A stretch of 64,000 bases of DNA. Source: Escherichia coli. GTDB lineage: Bacteria > Pseudomonadota > Gammaproteobacteria > Enterobacterales > Enterobacteriaceae. Below the pieces are notes generated by a model that was not told the DNA's origin, did not search any database, and saw nothing but the letters and a program-made list of their open reading frames with translations. Every line of letters starts with the position of its first letter. Position 1 is the stretch's first letter. This document shows positions 1,318 through 64,000 of this stretch, in pieces. The position numbers and the translations under genes were made by a program. Where the stretch lies: NCBI RefSeq assembly GCF_048403405.1, contig NZ_CP183129.1, one strand, 5' to 3'.

Positions 1318-1448
1318 TCAAACGACTCGGGGTGCCCTTCTGCGTGAAGGCTGAGAAATACCCGTATCACCTGATCTGGATAATGCCAGCGTAGGGAAGT
1401 CACGGACCACCAGGTCATTGCTTCTTCACGTTATGGCAGGAGCAAACT
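1318..1448 (+). promoter_or_regulatory. TPP (thi-box) riboswitch in the thiM leader
   Basis: Sequence ...CGACUCGGGGUGCCCUUCUGCGUGAAGGCUGAGAAAUACCCGUAUCACCUGAUCUGGAUAAUGCCAGCGUAGGGAAGUC... matches the E. coli thiM TPP aptamer as recalled; it ends at the thiM SD and ATG (1449). Confidence 0.85.
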
Positions 1449-2237
1449 ATGCAAGTCGACCTGCTGAGTTCCGCGCAATCTGCGCACGCGTTACATCTTT
1501 TTCACCAACATTCCCCTCTTGTGCACTGCATGACCAACGATGTGGTGCAAACCTTTACTGCCAATACCTTGCTGGCGCTCGGTGCATCCCCAGCGATGGT
1601 TATCGAAACCGAAGAGGCCAGTCAGTTTGCGGCTATCGCCAGTGCGTTGCTGATTAACGTTGGCACGCTGACGCAGCCACGCGCACAGGCGATGCGTGCC
1701 GCCATTGAACAGGCAAAACGCTCTCAAACACCCTGGACGCTTGATCCAGTAGCGGTGGGTGCACTCGATTATCGCCGCCGTTTTTGTCTGGAACTTCTGT
1801 CTCATAAGCCAACCGCCATACGTGGTAATGCTTCGGAAATCATGGCATTAGCTGGCGTTGCTAATGGTGGACGGGGAGTGGATACCACTGACGCCGCAGC
1901 TAATGCGATACCCGCTGCACAAACACTGGCACGGGAAACTGGCGCAATCGTCGTGGTCACTGGCGAGATGGATTATGTTACCGATGGACATCGTATCATT
2001 GGTATTCACGGTGGCGATCCGTTAATGACCAAAGTGGTAGGAACTGGCTGTGCATTATCGGCGGTTGTCGCTGCCTGTTGTGCGCTACCAGGCGATACGC
2101 TGGAAAATATCGCATCTGCCTGTCACTGGATGAAACAAGCCGGAGAACGCGCAGTCGCCAGTAGCGAGGGGCCAGGCAGTTTTGTTCCACATTTCCTTGA
2201 TGCGCTCTGGCAATTGACGCCGGAGGTGCAGGCATGA
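1449..2237 (+). CDS. thiM: Hydroxyethylthiazole kinase, 262 aa
   Basis: ORF track; recognised ThiM sequence; stop overlaps thiD start (ATGA). Confidence 0.9.
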
Positions 2238-3034
2238 AACGAATTAACGCTCTGACGATTGCCGGTACTGATCCGAGTGGTGGTGCGGGGATTCAGGCCG
2301 ATCTTAAAACCTTCTCGGCACTTGGCGCTTATGGTTGCTCAGTGATTACTGCACTGGTGGCGCAAAATACCCGTGGCGTACAGTCGGTGTATCGCATTGA
2401 GCCTGATTTTGTCGCCGCCCAGCTCGATTCGGTGTTCAGCGATGTGCGAATCGACACCACTAAAATCGGTATGTTGGCGGAAACCGATATTGTTGAAGCG
2501 GTGGCAGAAAGGTTGCAACGTTATCAGATCAAAAACGTGGTACTTGATACCGTTATGCTGGCAAAAAGCGGCGACCCGCTGCTTTCACCTTCGGCGGTTG
2601 CTACGCTGCGCAGTCGATTATTGCCACAGGTTTCATTAATAACGCCAAACTTGCCCGAAGCTGCCGCCTTGCTCGACGCGCCACACGCGCGCACCGAACA
2701 GGAAATGCTGGAACAAGGGCGATCGCTGTTGGCGATGGGCTGTGGCGCAGTGCTAATGAAAGGTGGTCATCTGGATGATGAGCAAAGCCCGGACTGGCTG
2801 TTTACCCGCGAGGGTGAACAACGGTTTACCGCACCGCGCATTATGACCAAAAACACCCACGGCACTGGTTGTACACTCTCTGCGGCGTTGGCTGCACTAC
2901 GCCCGCGCCATACAAACTGGGCAGACACCGTCCAGGAGGCAAAAAGCTGGCTTTCATCGGCGTTAGCCCAGGCCGACACGCTGGAAGTTGGTCACGGTAT
3001 TGGTCCGGTTCACCACTTCCACGCGTGGTGGTGA
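2234..3034 (+). CDS. thiD: Hydroxymethylpyrimidine/phosphomethylpyrimidine kinase, 266 aa
   Basis: ORF track; recognised ThiD sequence; translationally coupled to thiM. Confidence 0.9.
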
Positions 3035-3098
3035 GCACCTTACTATAGCTGCTTTGGTTATTGTCAGTATTTGGCGCTGACATTCAGGGATGAAACCA

Positions 3099-3917
3099 AT
3101 GCAGCTGAGAATCATCAGTCGAAAAAAATTCACCGCTTTATTATGCGCTCTTGGGCTAATTTCCATCGTTGCAATTTATCCGCGTCAGACGGTGAATTTT
3201 TTCTACTCGACAGCAATTCAGATTAAAGACTACATCCACTTCTACGGTTATCGCCCGGTTAAATCTTTCGCTATTCGCATTCCTGCCAGTTACACCATTC
3301 ATGGTATTGATGTTTCACGCTGGCAGGAGCGAATCGACTGGCAGCGGGTGGCAAAAATGCGCGACAACGGTATTCTCTTGCAGTTTGCCTTTATCAAGGC
3401 GACGGAAGGCGAAAAGCTGGTGGACCCCTATTTTTCGCGTAACTGGCAACTAAGCCGCGAAAATGGCCTGCTGCGCGGGGCGTATCATTATTTCTCCCCG
3501 TCGGTATCCGCTTCAGTTCAGGCGCGATTATTTCTGCAAACGGTGGATTTTGCCCACGGCGATCTCCCTGCCGTGCTGGACGTAGAAGAACGGGGAAAAT
3601 TATCGGCAAAAGAATTACGCAAGCGGGTAAGTCAGTGGCTAAAAATGGTCGAAAAACGCACGGGAAAAAAGCCAATTATTTACTCAGGAGCCGTTTTTTA
3701 TCACACGAATCTGGCGGGCTATTTTAATGAATATCCGTGGTGGGTGGCTCACTATTATCAACGTCGCCCGGACAATGACGGCATGGCCTGGCGCTTCTGG
3801 CAGCATTCCGACCGTGGACAGGTAGATGGCATTAATGGTCCGGTGGATTTTAATGTGTTTAATGGCACGGTGGAGGAGTTGCAGGCATTCGTTGATGGGA
3901 TTAAAGAAACGCCTTAA
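3099..3917 (+). CDS. yegX: GH25-family lysozyme-like muramidase with N-terminal hydrophobic anchor
   Basis: ORF 3090..3917; matches E. coli YegX as recalled; start placed at the second Met (MQLRII) to give 272 aa, start uncertain. Confidence 0.75.
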   Translation: MQLRIISRKKFTALLCALGLISIVAIYPRQTVNFFYSTAIQIKDYIHFYGYRPVKSFAIRIPASYTIHGIDVSRWQERIDWQRVAKMRDNGILLQFAFIKATEGEKLVDPYFSRNWQLSRENGLLRGAYHYFSPSVSASVQARLFLQTVDFAHGDLPAVLDVEERGKLSAKELRKRVSQWLKMVEKRTGKKPIIYSGAVFYHTNLAGYFNEYPWWVAHYYQRRPDNDGMAWRFWQHSDRGQVDGINGPVDFNVFNGTVEELQAFVDGIKETP

Positions 3918-3968
3918 ATAAGAAGCAGTGATATACTCCCACCAGATTCCCCGGCAGGAAAAAGACAA

Positions 3969-4715
3969 ATGGAACAAGCGCATACCCAGCTGATTGCCCA
4001 ACTGAACGAACGTATTTTAGCGGCGGATAACACGCCGCTTTATATTAAGTTTGCCGAAACGGTAAAAAATGCCGTGCGCAGCGGGGTGCTGGAGCATGGC
4101 AATATTTTACCCGGTGAGCGTGATTTAAGTCAGTTAACCGGCGTTTCGCGCATTACGGTGCGCAAGGCGATGCAGGCGCTGGAAGAAGAGGGCGTGGTGA
4201 CGCGTTCGCGTGGTTACGGTACGCAGATCAACAACATCTTCGAATACTCGTTGAAAGAAGCGCGAGGTTTTTCTCAGCAGGTGGTATTGCGCGGGAAAAA
4301 GCCCGATACGCTATGGGTTAACAAGCGTGTCGTGAAATGTCCCGAAGAAGTCGCGCAGCAGCTGGCGGTCGAAGCAGGAAGTGATGTCTTTTTGCTTAAG
4401 CGTATTCGCTATGTCGATGAAGAAGCGGTATCGATTGAGGAATCGTGGGTTCCGGCGCATTTAATTCATGATGTTGATGCCATCGGAATTTCTCTTTATG
4501 ACTACTTCCGCAGCCAGCACATTTACCCACAACGTACGCGTTCCCGCGTTAGCGCCCGGATGCCGGATGCCGAGTTTCAGTCACATATTCAGTTAGATAG
4601 CAAAATACCGGTGCTGGTGATCAAGCAAGTGGCGCTTGACCAACAGCAACGGCCTATTGAGTACAGCATCAGCCACTGTCGCAGCGATCTATACGTTTTT
4701 GTGTGCGAGGAGTAG
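3969..4715 (+). CDS. yegW: GntR/HutC-family transcriptional regulator, 248 aa
   Basis: ORF track; N-terminal HTH and C-terminal UTRA-like region; matches YegW as recalled; 3' end overlaps convergent yegV. Confidence 0.8.
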   Translation: MEQAHTQLIAQLNERILAADNTPLYIKFAETVKNAVRSGVLEHGNILPGERDLSQLTGVSRITVRKAMQALEEEGVVTRSRGYGTQINNIFEYSLKEARGFSQQVVLRGKKPDTLWVNKRVVKCPEEVAQQLAVEAGSDVFLLKRIRYVDEEAVSIEESWVPAHLIHDVDAIGISLYDYFRSQHIYPQRTRSRVSARMPDAEFQSHIQLDSKIPVLVIKQVALDQQQRPIEYSISHCRSDLYVFVCEE

Positions 4716-51350: not shown

Positions 51351-51380
51351 AAACCAGCTCATAAGCCGGGAGAACAACCT

Positions 51381-52220
51381 ATGAAAGACAATCCGCTGAT
51401 TTCAATCTATATGCCGACCTGGAACCGTCAACAACTGGCGATTCGGGCGATAAAATCGGTCCTGCGCCAGGACTACAGTAACTGGGAGATGATCATCGTG
51501 GATGATTGCTCCACCTCCTGGGAACAACTACAACAGTACGTCACCTCCCTCAACGATCCGCGTATCACTTACATTCACAACGACATTAACAGCGGGGCGT
51601 GCGCGGTACGTAACCAGGCGATTATGCTGGCGCAAGGGGAATACATCACCGGGATCGATGATGATGATGAATGGACACCCAACCGCCTGAGCGTCTTCCT
51701 CGCCCATAAACAGCAACTGGTCACTCACGCCTTTTTGTACGCTAACGACTACGTTTGCCAGGGCGAAGTCTATTCCCAACCGGCAAGCTTGCCGCTGTAT
51801 CCCAAATCGCCGTATTCACGCCGCCTGTTCTACAAACGCAATATCATTGGCAATCAGGTCTTTACCTGGGCGTGGCGTTTCAAAGAGTGCTTGTTCGATA
51901 CCAAACTGAAAGCGGCACAGGATTACGACATCTTCCTGCGGATGGTGGTGGAGTACGGCGAACCGTGGAAAGTGGAAGAGGCGACGCAGATCCTGCATAT
52001 CAATCATGGTGAAATGCAGATCACCTCGTCACCGAAAAAATTCTCCGGATACTTCCACTTTTACCGCAAGCACAAAGACAAATTCGACCGCGCCAGCAAA
52101 AAATATCAGCTGTTTACCCTCTACCAGATCCGCAATAAACGCATGACCTGGCGCACTTTGCTGACGCTGCTGTCGGTGCGTAACGGCAAACGTCTGGCTG
52201 ATGGTATTCGGGGGCGCTAA
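51381..52220 (+). CDS. wcaA: Colanic acid glycosyltransferase (GT2), 279 aa
   Basis: ORF track; recognised WcaA sequence. Confidence 0.85.
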   Translation: MKDNPLISIYMPTWNRQQLAIRAIKSVLRQDYSNWEMIIVDDCSTSWEQLQQYVTSLNDPRITYIHNDINSGACAVRNQAIMLAQGEYITGIDDDDEWTPNRLSVFLAHKQQLVTHAFLYANDYVCQGEVYSQPASLPLYPKSPYSRRLFYKRNIIGNQVFTWAWRFKECLFDTKLKAAQDYDIFLRMVVEYGEPWKVEEATQILHINHGEMQITSSPKKFSGYFHFYRKHKDKFDRASKKYQLFTLYQIRNKRMTWRTLLTLLSVRNGKRLADGIRGR

Positions 52221-52222
52221 AG

Positions 52223-52711
52223 ATGCTGGAAGATCTGCGCGCCAACAGCTGGAGTTTACGTCCGTGCTGCATGGTTCTTGCCTATCGCGTCGCTCATTTT
52301 TGTTCGGTGTGGCGCAAAAAGAACGTCCTCAACAATCTGTGGGCGGCCCCGCTGCTGGTGCTGTATCGCATTATCACCGAATGCTTTTTCGGTTATGAAA
52401 TCCAGGCCGCCGCGACCATAGGCCGACGCTTTACTATCCATCACGGTTACGCCGTGGTGATCAATAAAAACGTGGTCGCGGGGGATGATTTCACCATTCG
52501 TCACGGCGTCACTATCGGCAATCGTGGTGCCGATAACATGGCATGTCCACACATTGGCAACGGCGTCGAACTCGGTGCCAACGTCATTATTCTTGGTGAT
52601 ATCACGCTTGGTAACAACGTCACCGTGGGCGCGGGCAGCGTGGTGCTCGACTCTGTCCCGGACAACGCGCTGGTGGTGGGAGAAAAAGCGCGAGTGAAGG
52701 TAATTAAATGA
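52223..52711 (+). CDS. wcaB: Colanic acid acetyltransferase (hexapeptide repeat), 162 aa
   Basis: ORF track; left-handed beta-helix repeats. Confidence 0.85.
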   Translation: MLEDLRANSWSLRPCCMVLAYRVAHFCSVWRKKNVLNNLWAAPLLVLYRIITECFFGYEIQAAATIGRRFTIHHGYAVVINKNVVAGDDFTIRHGVTIGNRGADNMACPHIGNGVELGANVIILGDITLGNNVTVGAGSVVLDSVPDNALVVGEKARVKVIK

Positions 52712-53925
52712 ATATTCTGCAATTCAATGTGCGACTGGCGGAAGGCGGGGCAGCAGGTGTGGCGTTAGATCTCCACCAGCGTGCGCTGCAACAGGGGCTG
52801 GCATCACATTTTGTCTACGGCTACGGCAAAGGCGGCAAAGAGAGCGTCAGCCATCAGAACTATCCGCAGGTCATCAAACATACGCCGCGGATGACCGCGA
52901 TGGCGAACATTGCGTTGTTTCGTCTGCTTAATCGCGATCTGTTCGGCAATTTCAATGAGTTATATCGTACCATTACTCGCACACCGGGCCCGGTGGTTCT
53001 GCATTTTCATGTGCTGCACAGCTACTGGTTGAATCTTAACAGCGTGGTGCGCTTTTGCGAAAAAGTGAAAAACCATAAACCGGATGTCACTCTGGTCTGG
53101 ACACTGCACGACCACTGGAGCGTTACCGGACGCTGCGCCTTTACCGACGGTTGCGAAGGCTGGAAAACGGGCTGCCAGAAATGCCCGACCTTAAATAATT
53201 ATCCGCCGGTGAAGATTGATCGCGCACACCAACTGGTGGCGGGTAAACGCCAGTTATTCCGCGAGATGCTGGCACTGGGCTGTCAGTTTATTTCCCCCAG
53301 CCAGCATGTGGCTGATGCTTTCAATAGTCTGTACGGTCCAGGGCGTTGCCGGATTATCAATAACGGTATTGATATGGCAACCGAAGCGATTCTGGCGGAC
53401 TTGCCTCCGGTACGCGAAACCCAGGGCAAGCCGAAAATCGCGGTGGTGGCGCATGACCTGCGTTACGACGGCAAAACTAACCAGCAACTGGTACGCGAGA
53501 TGATGGCGCTGGGCGACAAAATCGAACTGCATACTTTCGGTAAGTTCTCGCCGTTCACCGCTGGTAACGTTGTTAATCACGGCTTTGAAACTGACAAACG
53601 TAAACTGATGAGCGCGCTCAACCAGATGGATGCGCTGGTGTTCAGTTCTCGCGTCGATAACTACCCGCTGATTTTGTGTGAGGCGCTATCAATTGGTGTG
53701 CCGGTGATTGCCACCCATAGCGATGCGGCGCGTGAAGTGCTGCAAAAATCCGGCGGTAAAACCGTCAGCGAAGAAGAGGTGCTGCAACTGGTGCAGTTAA
53801 GCAAACCGGAAATTGCGCAGGCGATATTTGGTACCACGCTGGCTGGGTTTAGCCAACGCAGCCGCGCCGCCTACAGTGGACAACAGATGCTGGAGGAGTA
53901 TGTCAACTTCTATCAGAATCTGTAG
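52708..53925 (+). CDS. wcaC: Colanic acid glycosyltransferase (GT4), 405 aa
   Basis: ORF track; overlaps wcaB stop. Confidence 0.85.
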   Translation: MNILQFNVRLAEGGAAGVALDLHQRALQQGLASHFVYGYGKGGKESVSHQNYPQVIKHTPRMTAMANIALFRLLNRDLFGNFNELYRTITRTPGPVVLHFHVLHSYWLNLNSVVRFCEKVKNHKPDVTLVWTLHDHWSVTGRCAFTDGCEGWKTGCQKCPTLNNYPPVKIDRAHQLVAGKRQLFREMLALGCQFISPSQHVADAFNSLYGPGRCRIINNGIDMATEAILADLPPVRETQGKPKIAVVAHDLRYDGKTNQQLVREMMALGDKIELHTFGKFSPFTAGNVVNHGFETDKRKLMSALNQMDALVFSSRVDNYPLILCEALSIGVPVIATHSDAAREVLQKSGGKTVSEEEVLQLVQLSKPEIAQAIFGTTLAGFSQRSRAAYSGQQMLEEYVNFYQNL

Positions 53926-55117
53926 CTACCTACTGCTGCCGCTGATTTACCTGCTGGTTAACGTCAAAATAGCCCAGCTTGGCGAAAGTTTCCCCATTAC
54001 CATCGTCACTTTTTTACCCGTCTTGTTACTGCTGTTTTTAGAGCGCATCAACGTTAAAAAATTGATGATTGCCTTAGGGGTTGGTGCGGGACTCACGGCG
54101 TTTAACTACCTGTTTGGTCAGTCGTTGGATGCCAGTAAATACGTCACTTCAACCATGCTGTTTGTCTATATTGTGATCATTATTGGCATGGTGTGGAGTA
54201 TTCGTTTTAAAACAATTTCGCCACACAACCATCGCAAGATATTACGTTTCTTTTATCTGGTGGTCGGGCTGGTGGTGGCGCTGGCGGCGGTGGAGATGGC
54301 GCAAATTATCCTCACCGGCGGTAGCAGTATTATGGAGTCGATTTCGAAATATCTGATTTACAGCAACAGCTATGTGCTGAATTTCATTAAATTCGGCGGC
54401 AAGCGCACGACAGCACTTTATTTCGAACCGGCATTTTTCGCTCTGGCATTAATCTCAATTTGGCTCAGCATCAAACAGTTTGGTATCAAAACGCCTAAAA
54501 CCGATGCTATGATTCTCGCAGGGATAATATTATCCGGATCGTTTTCAGGGGTTATGACCTTTATCCTTTTTTATTTGCTGGAGTGGGCATTTCAATATCT
54601 GAATAAAGAGGCGATTAAGAAAAAGTTACCGTTAGCATTGGTTTCTCTGGCTGTATTCCTGGTTGGTGTGGTAATCGCGTTTCCTTATATTTCCACCCGT
54701 CTGGGTGATTTAGGCACGGAAGGTTCGTCATCGTATTATCGTATTGTCGGTCCGCTGGTGATGGTCGGTTATTCTTTGACCCATATTGACGGTGTAGTCA
54801 GATTTGGCTCACTTTATGAATATGTCGCATCATTCGGAATATTTAACGGTGCGGATGTCGGAAAAACCATAGACAATGGTTTGTATCTGCTGATTATTTA
54901 TTTTTCCTGGTTCGCAGTGTTTTTATCGCTGTGGTACATGGGGAAAGTGATAAAAATGATGATCAACGCTTTTGGTGATAACCGCAATTTTCGCGTGCAA
55001 TTATATTTTTTTACTCCGGTATCGCTGTTTTTTACCGGTTCGATATTTAGCCCGGAATATGCATTTTTAATCGTCTGTCCGTTTATTTTGCGAAAAGCGT
55101 TAAATATTACGAGGTAA
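53900..55117 (+). CDS. wcaD: Colanic acid polymerase (Wzy-like), 405 aa
   Basis: ORF 53813..55117; start moved to [10 protein letters not shown]; polytopic membrane protein. Confidence 0.8.
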
Positions 55118-55127
55118 GAATAAGAAC

Positions 55128-55874
55128 ATGTTGCTTAGCATAATCACTGTCGCGTTTCGTAACCTCGAAGGGATAGTCAAAACACATGCCTCGCTGGCGC
55201 ATCTAGCGCAGGTGGACGATATCAGCTTCGAATGGATTGTTGTCGATGGCGGTTCCAACGACGGTACCCGTGAGTATCTGGAAAATCTCAAGGGTATCTA
55301 TAACCTACGCTTTGTCAGCGAGCCAGATAACGGTATCTACGACGCCATGAACAAGGGCATTGCGATGGCACAAGGCAAGTTCGCGTTGTTTCTCAACTCG
55401 GGCGATATTTTTCATCAGGATGCCGCAAATTTTGTCCGTAAGTTAAAAGTGCAAAAAGATAACGTGATGATCACCGGCGATGCGCTGCTGGATTTTGGCG
55501 ACGGGCATAAAATTAAACGTAGCGCCAAACCGGGCTGGTATATTTACCACAGCCTGCCCGCCAGTCATCAGGCGATATTTTTCCCGGTGTCCGGCTTGAA
55601 GAAATGGCGTTATGACCTGGAATATAAAGTTTCTTCCGACTACGCGCTGGCGGCCAAAATGTATAAAGCCGGTTATGCATTTAAAAAACTCAATGGCCTG
55701 GTGTCTGAATTTTCCATGGGTGGGGTATCTACCACCAATAATATGGAATTGTGTGCTGATGCCAAAAAAGTCCAACGGCAAATATTACATGTGCCTGGCT
55801 TCTGGGCAGAATTATCCTGGCATTTACGCCAGCGTACTACCTCAAAGACGAAAGCCTTATATAACAAAAGCTGA
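55128..55874 (+). CDS. wcaE: Colanic acid glycosyltransferase (GT2), 248 aa
   Basis: ORF track. Confidence 0.85.
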
Positions 55875-55889
55875 ATATAAGGGAAAACG

Positions 55890-56438
55890 ATGCAGGATTT
55901 AAGTGGGTTCTCGGTGCCGAAAGGGTTCCGGGGCAGCAATGCTATTAAAGTGCAATTATGGTGGGCGGTACAGGCAACAATATTTGCCTGGTCGCCACAA
56001 GTATTGTATCGCTGGCGGGCATTTTTATTACGTTTATTCGGCGCAAAAATAGGAAAAAACGTAGTTATTCGTCCGTCAGTAAAAATTACCTATCCGTGGA
56101 AATTAACCTTAGGTGATTACGCGTGGGTCGGCGATGAGGTCAATTTATATACCCTCGGTGAAATAACCATTGGCGCACATTCGGTGATATCGCAAAAAAG
56201 TTATTTATGCACCGGGAGCCACGACCATGCAAGTCAACATTTCACCATTAACGCCACGCCTATTGTGATTGGCGAGAAATGCTGGCTGGCGACAGATGTT
56301 TTTGTTGCCCCTGGCGTCACGATCGGCAACGGCACCGTCGTGGGTGCGCGAAGCAGTGTTTTTAAATCGCTTCCGGCAAATGTGGTTTGCCGGGGGAACC
56401 CCGCAGTGGTGATACGCAAACGCGTTGAAACTGAATAA
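55890..56438 (+). CDS. wcaF: Colanic acid acetyltransferase (hexapeptide repeat), 182 aa
   Basis: ORF track. Confidence 0.85.
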   Translation: MQDLSGFSVPKGFRGSNAIKVQLWWAVQATIFAWSPQVLYRWRAFLLRLFGAKIGKNVVIRPSVKITYPWKLTLGDYAWVGDEVNLYTLGEITIGAHSVISQKSYLCTGSHDHASQHFTINATPIVIGEKCWLATDVFVAPGVTIGNGTVVGARSSVFKSLPANVVCRGNPAVVIRKRVETE

Positions 56439-56464
56439 ATTCAAAAAATACAGAGGAATAAGAC

Positions 56465-57586
56465 ATGTCAAAAGTCGCTCTCATCACCGGCGTAACCGGA
56501 CAAGACGGTTCTTACCTGGCAGAGTTTCTGCTGGAAAAAGGTTACGAGGTGCATGGTATTAAGCGTCGCGCATCGTCATTCAACACCGAGCGCGTGGATC
56601 ACATTTATCAGGATCCGCACACCTGCAACCCGAAATTCCATCTGCATTATGGCGACCTGAGTGATACCTCCAACCTGACGCGCATTTTGCGTGAAGTGCA
56701 GCCGGATGAAGTGTACAACCTGGGCGCAATGAGCCACGTTGCGGTTTCTTTTGAGTCACCGGAATATACCGCTGACGTCGACGCGATGGGTACGCTGCGT
56801 CTGCTGGAGGCGATCCGCTTCCTCGGTCTGGAAAAGAAAACCCGTTTCTATCAGGCTTCCACCTCTGAACTGTATGGTCTGGTGCAGGAAATTCCGCAGA
56901 AAGAAACCACGCCGTTCTATCCACGCTCTCCGTATGCGGTCGCCAAACTGTACGCCTACTGGATCACCGTTAACTACCGCGAATCCTACGGCATGTACGC
57001 CTGTAACGGTATTCTCTTCAACCATGAATCCCCGCGCCGCGGCGAAACCTTCGTTACCCGCAAAATCACCCGCGCAATCGCCAACATCGCCCAGGGGCTG
57101 GAATCGTGCCTGTACCTCGGCAATATGGATTCCCTGCGTGACTGGGGCCATGCCAAAGACTACGTAAAAATGCAGTGGATGATGCTGCAACAGGAACAAC
57201 CGGAAGATTTCGTTATTGCCACCGGCGTTCAGTACTCCGTGCGTCAGTTCGTGGAAATGGCGGCAGCACAACTGGGCATCAAACTGCGCTTTGAAGGTAC
57301 GGGCGTTGAAGAGAAGGGCATTGTGGTTTCCGTCACCGGGCATGACGCGCCGGGCGTTAAACCGGGTGATGTGATTATCGCCGTTGATCCGCGTTACTTC
57401 CGTCCGGCTGAAGTTGAAACGCTGCTCGGCGACCCGACCAAAGCGCACGAAAAACTGGGCTGGAAACCGGAAATCACCCTCAGAGAGATGGTGTCTGAAA
57501 TGGTGGCTAATGACCTTGAAGCGGCGAAAAAACACTCTCTGCTGAAATCTCACGGCTACGACGTGGCGATCGCGCTGGAGTCATAA
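56465..57586 (+). CDS. gmd: GDP-mannose 4,6-dehydratase, 373 aa
   Basis: ORF track; SDR motifs GVTGQDGSY. Confidence 0.9.
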
Positions 57587-57588
57587 GC

Positions 57589-58554
57589 ATGAGTAAACAA
57601 CGCATTTTTATCGCTGGCCATCGCGGGATGGTCGGTTCCGCCATCAGGCGGCAGCTCGAACAGCGCGGTGATGTGGAACTGGTATTACGCACCCGCGACG
57701 AGCTGAACCTGCTGGACAGCCGCGCGGTGCATGATTTCTTTGCCAGCGAACGTATTGACCAGGTCTATCTGGCGGCGGCGAAAGTGGGCGGCATTGTTGC
57801 CAACAACACCTATCCGGCAGATTTCATCTACCAGAACATGATGATTGAGAGCAACATCATTCACGCCGCGCATCAGAACGACGTGAACAAACTGCTGTTT
57901 CTCGGATCGTCCTGTATCTACCCGAAACTGGCAAAACAGCCGATGGCAGAAAGCGAGTTATTGCAGGGTACGCTGGAGCCGACTAACGAGCCTTATGCTA
58001 TTGCCAAAATCGCCGGGATCAAACTGTGCGAATCTTACAACCGCCAGTATGGACGCGATTATCGCTCGGTCATGCCGACCAACCTGTATGGCCCGCATGA
58101 CAACTTCCACCCGAGTAATTCGCATGTGATCCCTGCATTGCTGCGTCGCTTCCACGAGGCGACGGCACAGAATGCACCGGACGTGGTGGTGTGGGGCAGC
58201 GGTACACCGATGCGCGAATTTCTGCACGTCGATGATATGGCGGCGGCGAGCATTCATGTGATGGAGCTGGCGCACGAAGTCTGGCTGGAGAACACCCAAC
58301 CGATGCTGTCGCACATTAACGTCGGCACGGGCGTTGACTGCACTATCCGCGAGCTGGCGCAAACCATCGCCAAAGTGGTGGGTTACAAAGGTCGGGTGGT
58401 TTTTGATGCCAGTAAACCGGATGGTACACCGCGCAAACTGCTGGATGTGACACGCCTGCATCAGCTTGGCTGGTATCACGAAATCTCACTGGAAGCGGGG
58501 CTCGCCAGCACTTACCAGTGGTTCCTTGAGAATCAAGACCGCTTTCGGGGGTAA
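57589..58554 (+). CDS. fcl: GDP-L-fucose synthase, 321 aa
   Basis: ORF track; NAD(P)-binding GHRGMVGSA. Confidence 0.9.
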
Positions 58555-58556
58555 TG

Positions 58557-59036
58557 ATGTTTTTACGTCAGGAAGACTTTGCCACGGTAGTGCGCTCTAC
58601 TCCGCTTGTCTCTCTCGACTTTATTGTCGAGAACAGTCGCGGCGAGTTTCTGCTTGGCAAAAGAACCAACCGCCCGGCGCAGGGTTACTGGTTTGTGCCG
58701 GGAGGGCGCGTGCAGAAAGACGAAACGCTGGAAGCCGCATTTGAGCGGCTGACGATGGAGGAACTGGGGCTGCGTCTGCCGATAACAGTAGGCCAGTTTT
58801 ACGGTGTCTGGCAGCACTTTTATGACGATAACTTCTCCGACACGGATTTCACCACTCACTATGTGGTGCTCGGTTTTCGCTTCAGAGTCGCTGAAGAAGA
58901 TCTGTTACTGCCGGATGAGCAGCATGACGATTACCGCTGGCTGACGCCGGACGCGTTGCTCGCCAGTGACAATGTTCACGCTAACAGCCGCGCCTATTTT
59001 CTCGCTGAGAAGCGTGCCGGAGTTCCCGGATTATGA
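58557..59036 (+). CDS. gmm: GDP-mannose mannosyl hydrolase (Nudix), 159 aa
   Basis: ORF 58554..59036; second Met chosen as start. Confidence 0.85.
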
Positions 59037-60256
59037 AAATACTGGTCTACGGCATTAACTACTCGCCGGAGTTAACCGGCATCGGCAAGTACACCGGCGA
59101 GATGGTGGAATGGCTGGCGGCACAAGGTCATGAGGTGCGGGTTATTACCGCACCGCCTTACTACCCGCAATGGCAGGTGGGCGAGAACTATTCCGCCTGG
59201 CGGTACAAACGAGAAGAGGGGGCCGCCACGGTGTGGCGCTGCCCGCTGTACGTGCCAAAACAGCCGAGCACCCTGAAACGCCTGTTGCATCTCGGCAGTT
59301 TTGCCGCCAGCAGTTTCTTTCCGCTGATGGCGCAACGTCGCTGGAAGCCGGATCGCATTATCGGCGTGGTGCCAACGCTGTTTTGCACGCCGGGAATGCG
59401 CCTGCTGGCGAAACTGTCTGGTGCGCGCACGGTGCTGCATATTCAGGATTACGAAGTGGACGCCATGCTGGGGCTGGGCCTTGCCGGAAAAGGCAAAGGC
59501 GGCAAAGTGGCACAGCTGGCGACGGCGTTCGAACGTAGCGGACTGCATAACGTCGATAACGTCTCCACGATTTCGCGTTCGATGATGAATAAAGCCATCG
59601 AAAAAGGCGTGGCGGCAGAAAACGTCATCTTCTTCCCCAACTGGTCGGAAATCGCCCGTTTTCAACATGTTGCAGACGCCGATGTTGACGACCTTCGTAA
59701 CCAGCTTGCCCTGCCGGATAACAAAAAAATCATTCTTTACTCCGGCAATATTGGTGAAAAGCAGGGGCTGGAAAACGTTATTGAAGCTGCCGATCGCCTG
59801 CGCGATGAACCGCTTATTTTTGCCATTGTCGGGCAGGGCGGCGGCAAAGCGCGGCTGGAAAAAATGGCGCAGCAGCGTGGACTGCGCAACATGCAATTTT
59901 TTCCGCTGCAATCATATGACGCTTTACCCGCACTGCTGAAGATGGGCGATTGCCATCTGGTGGTGCAAAAACGCGGCGCGGCAGATGCCGTATTGCCGTC
60001 GAAACTGACCAATATTCTGGCGGTAGGCGGTAACGCGGTGATTACTGCTGAAGCCCACACAGAACTGGGACAGCTTTGCGAAACCTTTCCGGGCATTGCG
60101 GTTTGCGTGGAACCGGAATCGGTCGAGGCGCTGGTGGCGGGGATTCGTCAGGCGCTCCTGCTGCCCAAACACAACACGGTGGCACGTGAATATGCCGAAC
60201 GCACGCTCGATAAAGAGAACGTGTTACGTCAATTTATAAATGATATTCGGGGATAA
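59033..60256 (+). CDS. wcaI: Colanic acid glycosyltransferase (GT4), 407 aa
   Basis: ORF track; overlaps gmm stop. Confidence 0.85.
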
Positions 60257-60258
60257 TT

Positions 60259-61695
60259 ATGGCGCAGTCGAAACTCTATCCAGTTGTGATGGCAGGTGGC
60301 TCCGGTAGCCGCTTATGGCCGCTTTCCCGCGTACTTTACCCCAAGCAGTTTTTATGCCTGAAAGGCGATCTCACCATGCTGCAAACCACCATCTGCCGCC
60401 TGAACGGCGTGGAGTGCGAAAGCCCGGTGGTGATTTGCAATGAGCAGCACCGCTTTATTGTCGCGGAACAGCTGCGTCAACTGAATAAACTCACCGAGAA
60501 CATTATTCTCGAACCGGCAGGGCGTAACACTGCACCTGCCATTGCGCTGGCGGCGCTGGCGGCAAAACGTCATAGCCCGGAGAGCGACCCGTTAATGCTG
60601 GTCTTGGCGGCGGATCATGTGATTGCCGACGAAGACGCGTTCCGTGCCGCCGTGCGTAATGCCATGCCGTATGCCGAAGCGGGTAAGCTGGTCACCTTCG
60701 GCATTGTGCCGGATCTACCTGAAACCGGATATGGCTATATTCGTCGCGGTGAAGTGTCGGCGGGCGAGCAGGATACGGTGGCCTTTGAAGTGGCGCAGTT
60801 TGTCGAAAAACCGAATCTGGAAACCGCTCAGGCCTATGTGGCAAGCGGCGAATATTACTGGAACAGCGGTATGTTCCTGTTCCGTGCCGGACGCTATCTC
60901 GAAGAACTGAAAAAATATCGCCCGGATATTCTCGATGCCTGCGAAAAAGCGATGAGCGCCGTCGATCCGGATCTCGATTTTATTCGTGTGGATGAAGAAG
61001 CGTTTCTGGCCTGCCCGGAAGAGTCGGTGGATTACGCGGTCATGGAACGCACGGCAGATGCCGTTGTGGTGCCGATGGATGCAGGCTGGAGCGATGTCGG
61101 CTCCTGGTCCTCTTTATGGGAGATCAGCGCCCACACCGCCGAGGGCAACGTTTGCCATGGCGATGTGATTAATCACAAAACTGAAAACAGCTATGTGTAT
61201 GCCGAATCTGGCCTGGTCACCACCGTCGGGGTGAAAGATTTGGTGGTAGTGCAGACCAAAGATGCGGTGCTGATTGCCGACCGTAATGCGGTGCAGGATG
61301 TGAAAAAAGTGGTCGAGCAGATCAAAGCTGATGGTCGCCATGAGCATCGGGTGCATCGCGAAGTGTATCGTCCGTGGGGCAAATATGACTCTATCGACGC
61401 GGGCGACCGCTATCAGGTGAAACGCATCACCGTGAAACCGGGCGAAGGCTTGTCAGTACAGATGCACCATCACCGCGCGGAACACTGGGTAGTGGTCGCG
61501 GGAACGGCAAAAGTCACTATTGACGGTGATATCAAACTGCTTGGTGAAAACGAGTCCATTTATATTCCGCTGGGGGCGACGCACTGCCTGGAAAACCCGG
61601 GGAAAATTCCGCTCGATTTAATTGAAGTGCGCTCCGGCTCTTATCTCGAAGAGGATGATGTGGTGCGCTTCGCGGATCGCTACGGACGGGTGTAG
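60259..61695 (+). CDS. cpsB: Mannose-1-phosphate guanylyltransferase, 478 aa
   Basis: ORF track; recognised ManC/CpsB sequence. Confidence 0.9.
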
Positions 61696-61795
61696 CCGTT
61701 GAATAATCAACCGGATTAATTCTCCGGTAAATAACGAAAAAACAAAATTGGCCGTTTCGGTCAGGGCCAACTATTGCCTGAAAAAGGGTAACGAC

Positions 61796-63166
61796 ATGAA
61801 AAAATTAACCTGCTTTAAAGCCTATGATATTCGCGGGAAATTAGGCGAAGAACTGAATGAAGATATCGCCTGGCGCATTGGTCGCGCCTATGGCGAATTT
61901 CTCAAACCGAAAACCATTGTGTTAGGCTGTGATGTCCGCCTCACCAGCGAAACCTTAAAACTGGCGCTGGCGAAAGGTTTACAGGATGCGGGCGTCGATG
62001 TGCTGGATATTGGCATGTCCGGCACCGAAGAGATCTATTTCGCCACGTTCCATCTCGGCGTGGATGGTGGCATTGAAGTTACCGCCAGCCATAACCCGAT
62101 GGATTACAACGGCATGAAGCTGGTGCGCGAGGGGGCCCGCCCGATCAGCGGTGATACCGGACTGCGCGATGTCCAGCGTCTGGCAGAAGCCAACGACTTC
62201 CCTCCCGTTGATGAAACCAAACGCGGTCGCTATCAGCAAATCAATCTGCGTGACGCTTACGTTGATCACCTGTTCGGTTATATCAACGTCAAAAACCTCA
62301 CGCCGCTCAAGCTGGTGATCAACTCCGGGAACGGCGCAGCGGGTCCGGTGGTGGACGCCATCGAAGCCCGCTTTAACGCCCTCGGCGCACCTGTGGAATT
62401 GATCAAAGTGCACAACACGCCGGACGGCAATTTCCCCAACGGTATTCCTAACCCGCTGCTGCCAGAATGTCGCGACGACACTCGCAATGCGGTCATTAAA
62501 CACGGCGCGGATATGGGCATTGCCTTTGATGGCGATTTTGACCGCTGTTTCCTGTTTGACGAAAAAGGGCAGTTTATCGAGGGTTACTACATTGTCGGTT
62601 TGCTGGCAGAAGCGTTCCTCGAAAAAAATCCCGGCGCGAAGATCATCCACGATCCGCGTCTCTCCTGGAACACCGTTGATGTGGTGACTGCCGCAGGCGG
62701 TACGCCGGTAATGTCGAAAACCGGACACGCCTTTATTAAAGAACGTATGCGCAAGGAAGACGCCATCTACGGTGGCGAAATGAGCGCCCACCATTACTTC
62801 CGTGATTTCGCTTACTGCGACAGCGGCATGATCCCGTGGCTGCTGGTCGCCGAACTGGTGTGCCTGAAAGGAAAAACGCTGGGCGAACTGGTGCGCGACC
62901 GGATGGCGGCGTTTCCGGCAAGCGGTGAGATCAACAGCAAACTGGCACAACCTGTTGAGGCGATTAACCGCGTGGAACAGCACTTTAGCCGCGAGGCGCT
63001 GGCGGTGGATCGTACCGATGGCATCAGCATGACCTTTGCCGACTGGCGCTTTAATCTGCGCTCCTCCAACACCGAACCGGTGGTGCGGTTGAATGTGGAA
63101 TCACGCGGTGATGTGCCGCTGATGGAAGCGCGAACGCGAACTCTGCTGACGTTGCTGAACGAGTAA
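61796..63166 (+). CDS. cpsG: Phosphomannomutase, 456 aa
   Basis: ORF 61748..63166; start moved to [10 protein letters not shown]; active-site TASHNP. Confidence 0.9.
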
Positions 63167-63220
63167 TGTCGGATCTTCCCTTACTCCACTGCGGGTAAGG
63201 GGTTAAAAACAGGAACAACG

Positions 63221-64000
63221 ATGACAAATCTAAAAAAGCGCGAGCGAGCGAAAACCAATGCATCGTTAATCTCTATGGTGCAACGCTTTTCAGATATCAC
63301 CATCATGTTTGCCGGACTATGGCTGGTTTGCGAAGTGAGCGGACTGTCATTCCTCTACATGCACCTGTTGGTGGCGCTGATTACGCTGGTGGTGTTCCAG
63401 ATGCTGGGCGGCATCACCGATTTTTATCGCTCATGGCGCGGTGTTCGGGCATCGACAGAATTTGCTCTGTTGCTACAAAACTGGACGTTAAGCGTGATTT
63501 TCAGCGCCGGACTGGTGGCGTTTAACAATGATTTCGACACGCAACTGAAAATCTGGCTGGCGTGGTATGGACTGACCAGCATCGGACTGGTGGTTTGCCG
63601 TTCGTGTATTCGCATTGGGGCGGGCTGGCTGCGTAATCATGGCTATAACAAACGCATGGTCGCCGTAGCGGGGGATTTAGCCGCCGGACAAATGCTGATG
63701 GAAAGCTTCCGTAATCAGCCGTGGTTAGGGTTTGAAGTGGTGGGCGTTTACCACGACCCGAAACCGGGCGGCGTTTCTAACGACTGGGCGGGCAATCTGC
63801 AACAACTGGTCGAGGATGCGAAAGCGGGCAAGATTCATAACGTCTATATCGCGATGCAGATGTGCGACGGCGCGCGAGTGAAAAAACTGGTCCATCAACT
63901 GGCGGACACCACCTGTTCGGTGCTGCTGATCCCCGATGTCTTTACCTTCAACATTCTCCATTCCCGTCTCGAAGAGATGAACGGCGTACCGGTGGTGCCG
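63221..64000 (+). CDS. wcaJ: Undecaprenyl-phosphate glucose phosphotransferase WcaJ, 5' portion only (runs off the window)
   Basis: Open frame from ATG 63221 to the window end (MTNLKKRERAKTNASL…); absent from the ORF track because no stop is reached. Confidence 0.8.
   Translation, partial: MTNLKKRERAKTNASLISMVQRFSDITIMFAGLWLVCEVSGLSFLYMHLLVALITLVVFQMLGGITDFYRSWRGVRASTEFALLLQNWTLSVIFSAGLVAFNNDFDTQLKIWLAWYGLTSIGLVVCRSCIRIGAGWLRNHGYNKRMVAVAGDLAAGQMLMESFRNQPWLGFEVVGVYHDPKPGGVSNDWAGNLQQLVEDAKAGKIHNVYIAMQMCDGARVKKLVHQLADTTCSVLLIPDVFTFNILHSRLEEMNGVPVVP

What the first reader, a model, noticed from the sequence alone, without database searches (positions are those of the whole stretch)
3099..3917. 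Membrane-anchored GH25 muramidase (yegX) outside any prophage context
A lysozyme-family protein with an N-terminal hydrophobic anchor sits among core metabolic genes with no holin, endolysin partner or phage genes nearby. This points to a housekeeping peptidoglycan-remodelling role or a domesticated phage enzyme.
Basis: inference. Interest (0 to 1): 0.3.

Follow-up and report, generated by a model that had tools for sequence, protein, structure and literature searches.

The report
Membrane-tethered GH25 lysozyme gene yegX
This is the already-annotated but never characterised E. coli gene yegX, which very probably encodes a lysozyme held on the inner membrane facing the cell wall; it does not come from a resident virus, and it appears to be switched on and off together with the neighbouring vitamin B1 salvage genes.

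Summary
Window 3099-3917 (+) is the RefSeq CDS yegX, 272 aa. It has a full-length GH25 domain (Pfam E=1.4e-54), a confident GH25 model and intact catalytic residues (D71, D161, E163). Its only hydrophobic helix (residues 11-27) follows a basic tail, which predicts an inner-membrane anchor with a periplasmic enzyme. The whole 64-kb window is ordinary E. coli chromosome with no phage genes.

- A phage origin has no support. True phage relatives are at most 38% identical, and the closer "phage" hits are mislabelled chromosome fragments. The nearest relatives are chromosomal enzymes with the same anchor in Bacteroidota and Neisseriales-like bacteria.
- "Housekeeping" is too strong. Near thiD the gene is absent in the Citrobacter, Kluyvera, Enterobacter and Mangrovibacter genomes sampled, and knockouts are viable. 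It is nevertheless in 5424/5426 E. coli genomes and under purifying selection (dN/dS 0.07).

New here:
- yegX is a roughly 0.9-kb single-gene segment directly behind thiD.
- No terminator separates them, and published RNA-seq shows yegX falling in step with thiD.
- A conserved leader stem buries the start codon.

Enzyme activity, topology and substrate remain untested. Verdict: a known gene of a known family, of modest interest.

The parts
3099..3917 (+). yegX coding sequence (272 aa plus stop)
   Evidence: ORF. Identical to the RefSeq CDS 'glycoside hydrolase family 25 protein'. Present in 5424 of 5426 complete E. coli genomes. dN/dS against E. albertii is 0.072.
3099..3128 (+). Predicted cytoplasmic N-terminal tail, residues 1-10 (MQLRIISRKK, net +4)
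   Evidence: All 33 homologues tabulated before the script stopped carry no net acidic tail, and in 32 of them the tail is net basic (+1 to +16). This fits the positive-inside rule (inference).
3129..3179 (+). Single transmembrane signal-anchor helix, residues 11-27 (FTALLCALGLISIVAIY)
   Evidence: It is the only hydrophobic window in the protein. Its Kyte-Doolittle mean of 2.38 lies within the family range of 1.75-2.66. AlphaFold2 models helix 8-26. There is no lipobox (L at -1 of C16) and no conserved AXA cleavage site (read from the sequences).
3180..3290 (+). Periplasmic juxtamembrane linker, residues 28-64: helix 28-47, then a beta-hairpin 51-62 specific to this clade
   Evidence: AlphaFold2 secondary structure, block pLDDT 77-93. 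Y51 and P62 are nearly invariant in 50 homologues. The solved GH25 structures align only from residue 65 onward.
3291..3893 (+). GH25 catalytic domain, residues 65-265
   Evidence: Pfam PF01183 E=1.4e-54. PDB sequence matches: 2wag 4e-33 and 1jfx 3.7e-28. The AlphaFold2 model has mean pLDDT 90.9. Foldseek top hits are 1jfx and 2wag, TM-score 0.81-0.85, rmsd 2.2-2.4 A.
3309..3311 (+). Codon for D71 (GIDVS motif)
   Evidence: Invariant in 50 homologues. Aligns with Asp9 of cellosyl, 1jfx.
3579..3587 (+). Codons for D161-V-E163 (the catalytic DxE motif)
   Evidence: D161 and E163 are invariant in 50 homologues. They align with Asp98 and Glu100 of cellosyl.
3846..3848 (+). Codon for D250 (VDFNVF motif)
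   Evidence: Invariant in 50 homologues. It is the fourth conserved acidic residue of GH25 enzymes, equivalent to Asp182 of Cpl-1 (from my own knowledge).
3035..3920 (+). Segment of about 886 bp (leader plus yegX) that Escherichia has and other enterics lack at the thiD/yegW junction
   Evidence: Three Citrobacter species, Kluyvera, several Enterobacter and Mangrovibacter have thiD followed by a 40-170 bp spacer and then yegW, with no yegX. The 52-bp Citrobacter spacer aligns with the E. coli yegX-yegW spacer.
3043..3109 (+). Leader stem-loop: the outer arms pair (3043-3059 with 3094-3109), burying the AUG at 3099 and leaving the GGGA Shine-Dalgarno in a small loop
   Evidence: RNA fold of -31.2 kcal/mol, z = -2.35 against shuffles. 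The same outer stem folds in E. albertii and E. fergusonii. The non-coding 5' arm TATAGCTGCTTTGG is invariant in five sequences while the inner loop varies. It is not followed by a run of U, so it is not an intrinsic terminator.
3918..3968 (+). Retained ancestral thiD-yegW spacer, now lying between yegX and yegW (conserved TATACT and GGAAAAAGAyAA)
   Evidence: Direct comparison with Citrobacter, Kluyvera and Enterobacter spacers.
1318..3034 (+). Upstream thiMD operon that probably drives yegX: TPP riboswitch 1318-1414, thiM 1449-2237, thiD 2234-3034
   Evidence: Rfam RF00059, 71.8 bits. No terminator-like site lies between thiD and yegX. In three EHEC strains the yegX log2 fold changes (-3.75, -6.42, -3.80) track thiD (-3.74, -5.56, -4.09) (PMC6729007).

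Best explanation
yegX encodes a type II (N-in, C-out) inner-membrane protein. A short basic cytoplasmic tail and one stable transmembrane helix hold a roughly 40-residue linker and a GH25 (Chalaropsis-type) lysozyme domain in the periplasm.

The domain should hydrolyse the beta-1,4 MurNAc-GlcNAc bond of peptidoglycan, using the D161-x-E163 pair with D71. The products would carry ordinary reducing MurNAc ends, unlike the 1,6-anhydro ends made by lytic transglycosylases. Because the enzyme is tethered to the membrane, it most plausibly trims glycan strands close to the membrane, meaning nascent or loosely attached strands of the cell's own wall.

The gene is a stand-alone chromosomal unit. In Escherichia it sits directly behind thiD. 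Most of its transcription probably comes from read-through of the TPP-riboswitch-controlled thiMD operon. Translation is probably kept low by a conserved leader stem that buries the start codon.

Shown here: family, fold, conserved catalytic residues, a hydrophobic helix and basic tail shared across the clade, the non-phage context, purifying selection, and co-variation of the transcript with thiD.

Inferred and not shown: topology, enzymatic activity, substrate, and the role of the leader stem.
For: Family and fold:
- Pfam GH25, full length, E=1.4e-54.
- PDB sequence matches to 2wag, 4kru and 1jfx, E from 4e-33 to 3.7e-28.
- AlphaFold2 mean pLDDT 90.9. Foldseek top 19 hits are all GH25 lysozymes, autolysins or endolysins, the best at TM-score 0.81-0.85.
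- D71, D161, E163 and D250 are invariant in 50 homologues and map onto cellosyl D9, D98 and E100.

Anchor:
- There is a single hydrophobic helix after a +4 tail.
- The tabulated homologues from Bacteroidota and Neisseriales-like bacteria all have a hydrophobic helix, a 34-44 residue linker and GH25, and in all but one of them (probably N-terminally truncated) the helix follows a net-basic tail.

A functional gene:
- dN/dS is 0.072 against E. albertii and 0.073 against Salmonella, between thiD (about 0.02) and thiM (about 0.11).
- It is present in 5424 of 5426 E. coli genomes.

Not a prophage.

Expression:
- No terminator follows thiD, and a TPP riboswitch lies upstream.
- yegX is among the 20 most down-regulated shared genes in lettuce medium versus M9, with fold changes matching thiD and thiCEFGH in three strains.
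- The leader stem is described.
Against: - I found no experimental study of YegX activity, localisation or phenotype in the searchable literature.
- Knockouts are viable, with only mild hits in chemical screens: low boric-acid sensitivity and delayed growth on epetraborole.
- To my knowledge, reducing-end muropeptides attributable to a lysozyme are not an established feature of E. coli sacculi.
- Whether the signal anchor is cleaved could not be tested with a dedicated predictor.
- The co-regulation with thiD rests on one published data set. A genomic SELEX study also lists an RNA-polymerase site for yegX itself, although my consensus scan found no promoter on the + strand there.
- The outer leader stem never varies, so there is no covariation evidence for it. 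Its 3' arm is also constrained by coding.
Confidence: 0.62

Rival explanations
1. yegX is a domesticated phage endolysin of the signal-arrest-release (SAR) type. The N-terminal helix holds the enzyme inactive in the membrane and releases it on membrane depolarisation, giving an autolysis or altruistic-death function.
For: - GH25 is a common endolysin domain. PHROG endolysin families match with E from 1e-45 down to 1e-19.
- The YegX helix contains 7 of 17 small or weakly hydrophobic residues (T, A, C, A, G, S, A).
- GH25 genes are known to move horizontally, including through phages (PMC4241558).
Against: - No holin, pinholin, spanin or any phage gene occurs in 64 kb.
- The best true phage homologues are at most 38% identical, and the closer 'phage' records are chromosomal.
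- The helix has normal anchor hydrophobicity (2.38, family range 1.75-2.66). In the Bacteroidota relatives it is a leucine, isoleucine and valine-rich stable anchor.
- All six homologue contexts examined are chromosomal with no lysis genes.
Confidence: 0.06
2. The enzyme is active but peptidoglycan of the cell's own wall is not its physiological substrate. It might act on soluble muropeptides or glycan fragments for recycling, on another N-acetyl-hexosamine polymer in the envelope, or on foreign peptidoglycan after release in vesicles.
For: - There is no growth defect in knockouts.
- The gene is lineage-restricted.
- Expression follows a nutrient (thiamine) signal and not cell-wall genes.
- A chromosomal GH25 in Brucella was reported to affect metabolism and drug susceptibility without effect on virulence or intracellular survival (PMC12959145).
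Against: - To my knowledge, every characterised GH25 enzyme is a muramidase.
- The substrate-contacting aromatic and acidic residues are invariant with those of peptidoglycan-cleaving relatives.
- A membrane tether argues against action outside the cell.
Confidence: 0.2
3. yegX is a decaying passenger gene with no current function. It is retained only because it sits in a transcribed, recombination-cold spot.
For: - It is dispensable.
- Truncated forms are annotated in Shigella sonnei and S. flexneri (185-239 aa).
- It is absent from most Enterobacteriaceae sampled.
Against: - dN/dS of about 0.07 holds over divergences with dS of about 0.9 and 2.9 (dS was saturated, and dN/dS undefined, for the E. 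fergusonii pair).
- The reading frame is intact in E. coli, E. albertii, E. fergusonii and Salmonella subspecies.
- The catalytic residues are invariant.
- It is present in 5424 of 5426 E. coli genomes.
Confidence: 0.05

Closest known systems
Cellosyl (Streptomyces coelicolor muramidase, PDB 1jfx) and BaGH25c (Bacillus anthracis, PDB 2wag): bacterial GH25 lysozymes
   Same: - Same family and fold: 34% identity, TM-score 0.81-0.85.
- Same catalytic Asp, Asp-x-Glu constellation.
   Different: - Those are secreted, soluble, single-domain enzymes of Gram-positive bacteria.
- YegX adds a cytoplasmic tail, a transmembrane anchor and a linker of about 40 residues with an extra beta-hairpin, and it works in a Gram-negative periplasm.
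Phage GH25 endolysins (Cpl-1; Psm of phage phiSM101, PDB 4krt/4kru; TP-84 endolysin)
   Same: Same catalytic domain, at 31-38% identity.
   Different: - They lie in lysis cassettes with holins and carry C-terminal wall-binding modules.
- YegX has neither, and it sits in the core chromosome.
SAR endolysins (phage P1 Lyz, phage 21 R21)
   Same: Both have an N-terminal membrane helix in front of a muralytic domain exported by Sec.
   Different: - They belong to different catalytic families (T4-lysozyme-like).
- They are phage-encoded with a pinholin.
- Their helix is weakly hydrophobic and releasable. The YegX-family helix looks like a stable anchor.
MltG (E. coli inner-membrane lytic transglycosylase, glycan-strand terminase)
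   Same: Same predicted topology: a single N-terminal helix and a periplasmic glycan-cleaving domain positioned near nascent peptidoglycan. This is a 'works like' resemblance only (inference from my own knowledge).
   Different: - The fold is unrelated (YceG) and the chemistry differs: a non-hydrolytic reaction with 1,6-anhydro-MurNAc products.
- MltG is widely conserved, whereas YegX is patchy.
DigH (YddW), the E. coli hydrolytic glycosidase for denuded septal glycans
   Same: Both are hydrolytic (not transglycosylase) cleavers of peptidoglycan glycan in E. coli (from my own knowledge).
   Different: - It belongs to a different family and has a different localisation (outer-membrane lipoprotein, septal).
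- No sequence relationship was seen or tested here.
Membrane-anchored chromosomal GH25 proteins of Bacteroidota (Pedobacter, Solitalea, Anseongella, Chitinophagales) and Neisseriales-like bacteria
   Same: - Same architecture end to end, at 44-57% identity.
- They are single genes in housekeeping contexts.
   Different: - They have much longer lysine- and arginine-rich cytoplasmic tails (up to +17).
- They are not linked to thiamine genes.
- As far as I could find, they are equally uncharacterised.

Membership tests
Glycoside hydrolase family 25 (Chalaropsis-type lysozyme, Pfam PF01183) | Sequence match to the family profile above the curated threshold | tested here: met
   185.6 bits against a cut-off of 27, E=1.4e-54, profile positions 1-180 of 180.
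Glycoside hydrolase family 25 (Chalaropsis-type lysozyme, Pfam PF01183) | The irregular beta/alpha barrel fold of GH25 | tested here: met
   AlphaFold2 mean pLDDT 90.9. Foldseek top 19 PDB hits are all GH25 enzymes, the best at TM-score 0.81-0.85 and rmsd 2.2-2.4 A.
Glycoside hydrolase family 25 (Chalaropsis-type lysozyme, Pfam PF01183) | Catalytic acidic residues: the N-terminal Asp and the Asp-x-Glu motif (cellosyl D9, D98, E100) | tested here: met
   D71, D161 and E163 align with them and are invariant in 50 homologues.
Glycoside hydrolase family 25 (Chalaropsis-type lysozyme, Pfam PF01183) | Hydrolysis of the MurNAc-beta-1,4-GlcNAc bond of peptidoglycan | not testable with these tools
   No published assay of YegX was found.
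Bitopic (type II signal-anchor) inner-membrane protein | One uncleaved hydrophobic helix, positive charge on the cytoplasmic side, C-terminus in the periplasm | tested here: inconclusive
   The helix at 11-27 and the +4 tail versus +1 after the helix fit this, and the feature is conserved across the clade. No signal-peptide predictor or experiment was available to exclude cleavage.
Phage endolysin / SAR endolysin | Encoded in a phage or prophage lysis cassette with a holin or pinholin (and spanins in Gram-negative hosts) | tested here: not met
   There are no phage genes in the 64-kb window or in six homologue contexts.
Phage endolysin / SAR endolysin | Close sequence relatives in phage genomes | tested here: not met
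   Of 50,697 phage records, none exceeds 60% identity. Genuine phage hits are at most 38% identical, and the 36-45% 'phage' hits are chromosomal contigs.
Phage endolysin / SAR endolysin | A weakly hydrophobic, glycine- and alanine-rich, releasable N-terminal helix | tested here: inconclusive
   7 of 17 residues are small or weakly hydrophobic, but the mean hydropathy of 2.38 equals that of clear anchors in relatives. Release cannot be tested in silico.
Bacterial lipoprotein | A lipobox [LVI][ASTVI][GAS]C at the end of the signal peptide | tested here: not met
   C16 is preceded by A-L-L, with Leu at -1. Many homologues have no Cys in the helix.

The most novel reading that the evidence does not exclude
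The link to thiamine is adaptive and not an accident of insertion. On this reading, YegX is a muramidase induced by thiamine limitation: transcriptionally the third gene of the TPP-riboswitch thiMD salvage operon, and translationally gated by a conserved stem that buries its start codon. Its wall-cleaving activity would serve a starvation response, for example loosening or turning over the sacculus, or releasing material when the cofactor is scarce. The persistence of the thiD-yegX junction in E. coli, E. albertii and E. fergusonii, and as a decayed thiM'-'thiD relic upstream of the Salmonella subsp. indica/salamae copy, would then reflect selection for that coupling.
Probability: 0.1. Interest if true: 0.6.

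Novelty: already known. Interest (0 to 1): 0.3.

Why it matters
To my knowledge, E. coli's peptidoglycan hydrolases have been catalogued intensively, and the organism is usually described as cleaving its glycan strands with lytic transglycosylases and not with a true lysozyme. YegX is a nearly universal E. coli gene with every hallmark of an active lysozyme placed in the periplasm, yet I could find no functional study of it.

Showing that it is active would add a hydrolytic glycan-cleaving activity, and a new class of muropeptide ends, to the model organism's cell-wall metabolism.

The coupling to the thiamine riboswitch operon and the start-codon-burying leader are cheap to test. They would explain why the enzyme has escaped notice in rich, thiamine-replete media. 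The practical value is modest: it is a candidate for cell-wall and antibiotic-tolerance studies, and an example of a single-gene acquisition wired into a host operon.

Tried and rejected
- **NCBIfam:** the scan of YegX gave no family.
- **Promoter scan:** the consensus scan of 2700-4300 found no + strand sigma-70-like site for yegX, although a SELEX paper lists one. I therefore did not claim an own promoter.
- **Terminator scan:** no plausible thiD or yegX terminator was found. The three terminator-like hits lie inside coding sequence and number no more than expected from shuffles.
- **Phage origin:** a tblastn search of 50,697 phage records found nothing above 60% identity. The top hit (MT838172.1, 45%) and 'Acinetobacter phage MD-2021a' (36%) turned out to be chromosomal.
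- **phrog_23704:** it matches the YegX C-terminus almost identically. I set it aside as a probable overshoot of a predicted prophage boundary, because no phage record contains it.
- **Conserved partner gene:** I looked in six homologue neighbourhoods and found none. The M20 peptidase adjacency occurs in only two.
- **Link to yegW/yegTUV:** rejected, because E. albertii and E. fergusonii keep yegX but replace yegWVUT with DUF6493/SWIM genes. GgaR (YegW) has yegTUV as its single target.
- **Second TPP aptamer in Salmonella:** I tested whether the relic upstream of the Salmonella copy still holds one. None was detected at E<=0.01.
- **Repeated element:** the thiD-yegX spacer is single-copy in every genome where it was detected.
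- **Lipoprotein reading:** rejected for lack of a lipobox.
- **Composition:** base composition shows no sign of recent acquisition. yegX has 48.4% GC and GC3 of 0.52, against a window GC of 52%.
- **Literature:** searches for yegX, b2102, and GH25 with Gram-negative or Bacteroidetes terms found no functional work on this protein.

Full report
**1. What is there**

The window is E. coli chromosome. The gene order is rcnA, rcnR, TPP riboswitch, thiM, thiD, yegX, yegW (ggaR), yegVUT, fbaB, the gat operon and onward to the colanic-acid genes. It is collinear over all 64 kb with strain TUM14771.

The reported interval 3099-3917 (+) is exactly the RefSeq CDS yegX, 'glycoside hydrolase family 25 protein', 272 aa. 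A 1.2-kb query centred on it matches 5424 of 5426 complete E. coli genomes, at one place per genome as the median.

**2. The protein**

- Pfam GH25 covers residues 70-245 over the complete profile (E=1.4e-54).
- The closest solved structures by sequence are B. anthracis BaGH25c (2wag, 4e-33), the phiSM101 endolysin (4kru) and cellosyl (1jfx).
- An AlphaFold2 model built on 50 homologues has mean pLDDT 90.9. Its 19 best PDB matches by Foldseek are all GH25 enzymes, with 1jfx and 2wag at TM-score 0.81-0.85.
- D71, D161, E163 and D250 are invariant across the 50 homologues. The first three align with D9, D98 and E100 of cellosyl, which are its catalytic residues from my own knowledge of that literature. 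Nothing suggests a dead enzyme.

**3. The N-terminus**

The only hydrophobic stretch is residues 11-27 (FTALLCALGLISIVAIY). It follows MQLRIISRKK, net +4. The model shows helix 8-26, a second helix 28-47 and a small beta-hairpin (51-62) before the barrel.

The tabulated homologues all repeat the helix-and-linker plan, whether from Sphingobacteriales, Chitinophagales or Neisseriales-like bacteria. A tail with no net acidic charge (net basic, +1 to +16, in all but one) is followed by a 17-residue helix with hydropathy 1.75-2.66, then a linker of 34-44 residues, then GH25. The script stopped after 33 of the 50 sequences.

There is no lipobox, and no small-x-small cleavage motif is conserved after the helix. 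In the Bacteroidota relatives the helix is followed by S-P-F-Y-Y. I read this as an uncleaved signal anchor with the enzyme in the periplasm. That is an inference from the positive-inside rule and is not tested.

**4. Not a phage gene**

- No phage, holin or spanin genes lie in the window.
- Among 50,697 phage records, no hit exceeds 60% identity. Real phage endolysins (Geobacillus TP-84, Bacillus phages) reach 36-38%.
- The best 'phage' hit (MT838172.1, 45%) carries prmA and outer-membrane-protein genes beside a membrane-anchored GH25, so it is a Bacteroidales-like chromosome fragment.
- 'Acinetobacter phage MD-2021a' is a chromosome contig with dinP and creBCD.
- PHROG endolysin families match, as expected for any GH25. 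One small PHROG of unknown function matches the YegX C-terminus almost identically. I take that to be a prophage-prediction overshoot.

**5. Where it came from**

I anchored a scan of one genome per species on ThiD and then ran tblastn with the neighbouring E. coli proteins.

- Three Citrobacter species, Kluyvera, Enterobacter cloacae, two further Enterobacter isolates and Mangrovibacter have thiM, thiD, a spacer of 40-170 bp, yegW, yegVUT and fbaB, with no yegX. A third Enterobacter isolate also lacks yegX, but there thiD is followed directly by fbaB.
- The 52-bp Citrobacter spacer aligns with the E. coli yegX-yegW spacer. E. coli therefore carries an extra segment of about 886 bp starting right after the thiD stop codon.
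- E. albertii (89% amino-acid identity) and E. fergusonii (78%) have yegX in the same place. There yegWVUT is replaced by DUF6493/SWIM genes. So yegX is linked to thiD and not to the yeg genes.
- A 69% homologue exists in Salmonella enterica subsp. indica and salamae, between rcnB and thiM. Just upstream of it lie decayed copies of the thiM leader and 5' end (L082 7657-7793) and of the last 55 nt or so of thiD plus the spacer (L082 7861-8017). That copy too once sat behind a thiMD unit.
- The enteric sequences branch as (Salmonella, (E. fergusonii, (E. coli, E. albertii))), matching the species tree. They are sister to sequences from Neisseriales/Chromobacteriaceae-like contigs (55-57% identity; taxon assigned from DnaB), and then to a large Bacteroidota clade.
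- yegX divergence tracks thiM in each pair (amino-acid identity 0.886 vs 0.863, 0.768 vs 0.782, 0.690 vs 0.698).

Either the gene was acquired before Escherichia and Salmonella split and was later lost from several lineages, or it entered Escherichia and an early thiMD-yegX segment passed to Salmonella. I cannot decide between these. GH25 genes are known to be unusually mobile across life (PMC4241558).

**6. Is it maintained?**

dN/dS is 0.072 against E. albertii and 0.073 against Salmonella. The neighbours give 0.02 (thiD) and 0.11 (thiM). This is clear purifying selection. Base composition is unremarkable. Shorter forms are annotated in Shigella; I did not follow these up.

**7. Expression**

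- No terminator-like site separates thiD from yegX or yegX from yegW. The 64-nt spacer is single-copy. A TPP riboswitch precedes thiM.
[quoted passage not shown] Its log2 fold changes are -3.75, -6.42 and -3.80. Those of thiD are -3.74, -5.56 and -4.09, alongside thiCEFGH (PMC6729007).
- The simplest reading is read-through transcription from thiMD. yegX mRNA would then be high when thiamine is absent and low when it is supplied. This rests on one data set.
- The spacer plus the first codons fold into a stem (-31.2 kcal/mol, z = -2.35). In it, 3043-3059 pairs with 3094-3109, which buries the AUG at 3099.
- The stem recurs in E. albertii and E. fergusonii. Its non-coding 5' arm is invariant in five sequences while the enclosed loop varies.
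- This fits translational restraint of a potentially dangerous enzyme. There is no covariation, and the 3' arm is coding, so it remains a lead.

**8. What is known**

- I found no functional study of YegX.
- It appears in lists only: an RNA-polymerase SELEX site, low boric-acid sensitivity and delayed growth on epetraborole in Keio screens, an intergenic mutation in a heat-adaptation experiment, and 2.3-fold induction in ground beef.
- The neighbour YegW (GgaR) regulates only yegTUV.

**9. Mechanism proposed**

YegX would be an inner-membrane-tethered periplasmic muramidase. It would hydrolyse MurNAc-GlcNAc bonds of strands within reach of the membrane, be expressed mainly under thiamine limitation, and be kept at low level by its leader.

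In topology it works like MltG, and in chemistry like cellosyl. It is a member of GH25. It is not a member of the phage endolysin or SAR class.

Rivals are a non-wall substrate (0.2), a SAR-like autolysin (0.06) and a functionless passenger (0.05).

**10. Verdict**

This is a correct, already-annotated observation of an uncharacterised gene of a well-known family. The interest is modest. The thiamine coupling and the leader stem are the only new and testable points.

Noticed in passing
window 3043-3109: The thiD-yegX leader folds so that the yegX start codon is paired. The non-coding 5' arm TATAGCTGCTTTGG is invariant in three E. coli strains, E. albertii and E. fergusonii, while the enclosed loop varies. 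This may be a translational brake.
   Followed up: partly
window 1318-3917: A TPP riboswitch, thiM, thiD and yegX lie in a row with no terminator-like site between thiD and yegX. Published RNA-seq shows yegX changing in lockstep with thiD, so yegX may in effect be a third gene of the thiMD operon.
   Followed up: partly
L082 7657-8017 (Salmonella enterica subsp. indica/salamae-type contig): Upstream of the Salmonella yegX homologue lie decayed relics of the thiM leader and 5' end and of the thiD 3' end, next to an intact riboswitch-thiM-thiD copy. This is the trace of a duplicated or imported thiMD-yegX unit. No TPP aptamer is detectable in the relic.
   Followed up: partly
L034 8828-9562 (Superficieibacter electus): An unrelated 244-aa ORF occupies the same thiD/yegW junction where Escherichia has yegX. 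Its sequence looks like a hexapeptide-repeat acetyltransferase, but I ran no family search on it. The junction therefore seems to accept single-gene insertions repeatedly.
   Followed up: no
L002 9768-12308 and L083 2631-9226 (E. albertii, E. fergusonii): In these species yegW-yegVUT is replaced by one or two very large DUF6493/DUF7824/DUF7825 proteins and a SWIM-domain protein, lying between yegX and fbaB. Their function is unknown.
   Followed up: no
L087 (MT838172.1) and L086 (CAKLQH020000037.1): Two records filed as phages in the public phage collection are bacterial chromosome fragments. One carries prmA and outer-membrane-protein genes, the other dinP and creBCD. They inflate the apparent phage relatives of this protein.
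   Followed up: yes
YegX residues 153-272 (window 3555-3914): PHROG family phrog_23704 ('unknown function', 134 aa) matches at 277 bits, which is essentially this same sequence, yet no phage record holds a close copy. It probably comes from a predicted prophage that overshot into the chromosome.
   Followed up: partly
L084 6461-8855 and L088 533-2962: A peptidase M20 gene lies immediately upstream of a membrane-anchored GH25 gene in a Neisseriales-like contig, and upstream of a second GH25 paralogue in Solitalea lacus. This could be coincidence or a weak functional link.
   Followed up: no
one search hit list (P0015, P0020, P0077): Shigella sonnei and S. flexneri entries for this protein are truncated or frameshifted (185-239 aa). 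This suggests pseudogenisation in Shigella.
   Followed up: no
window 51366-64000: The colanic-acid (wca) end of the window is only 78-86% identical to the otherwise near-identical strain TUM14771. That pattern is consistent with recombination next to the O-antigen region.
   Followed up: no
L082 13434-14748: In the Salmonella contig the nucleoside-permease gene yegT is split into two called genes (116 and 340 aa), so it is probably a frameshifted pseudogene.
   Followed up: no
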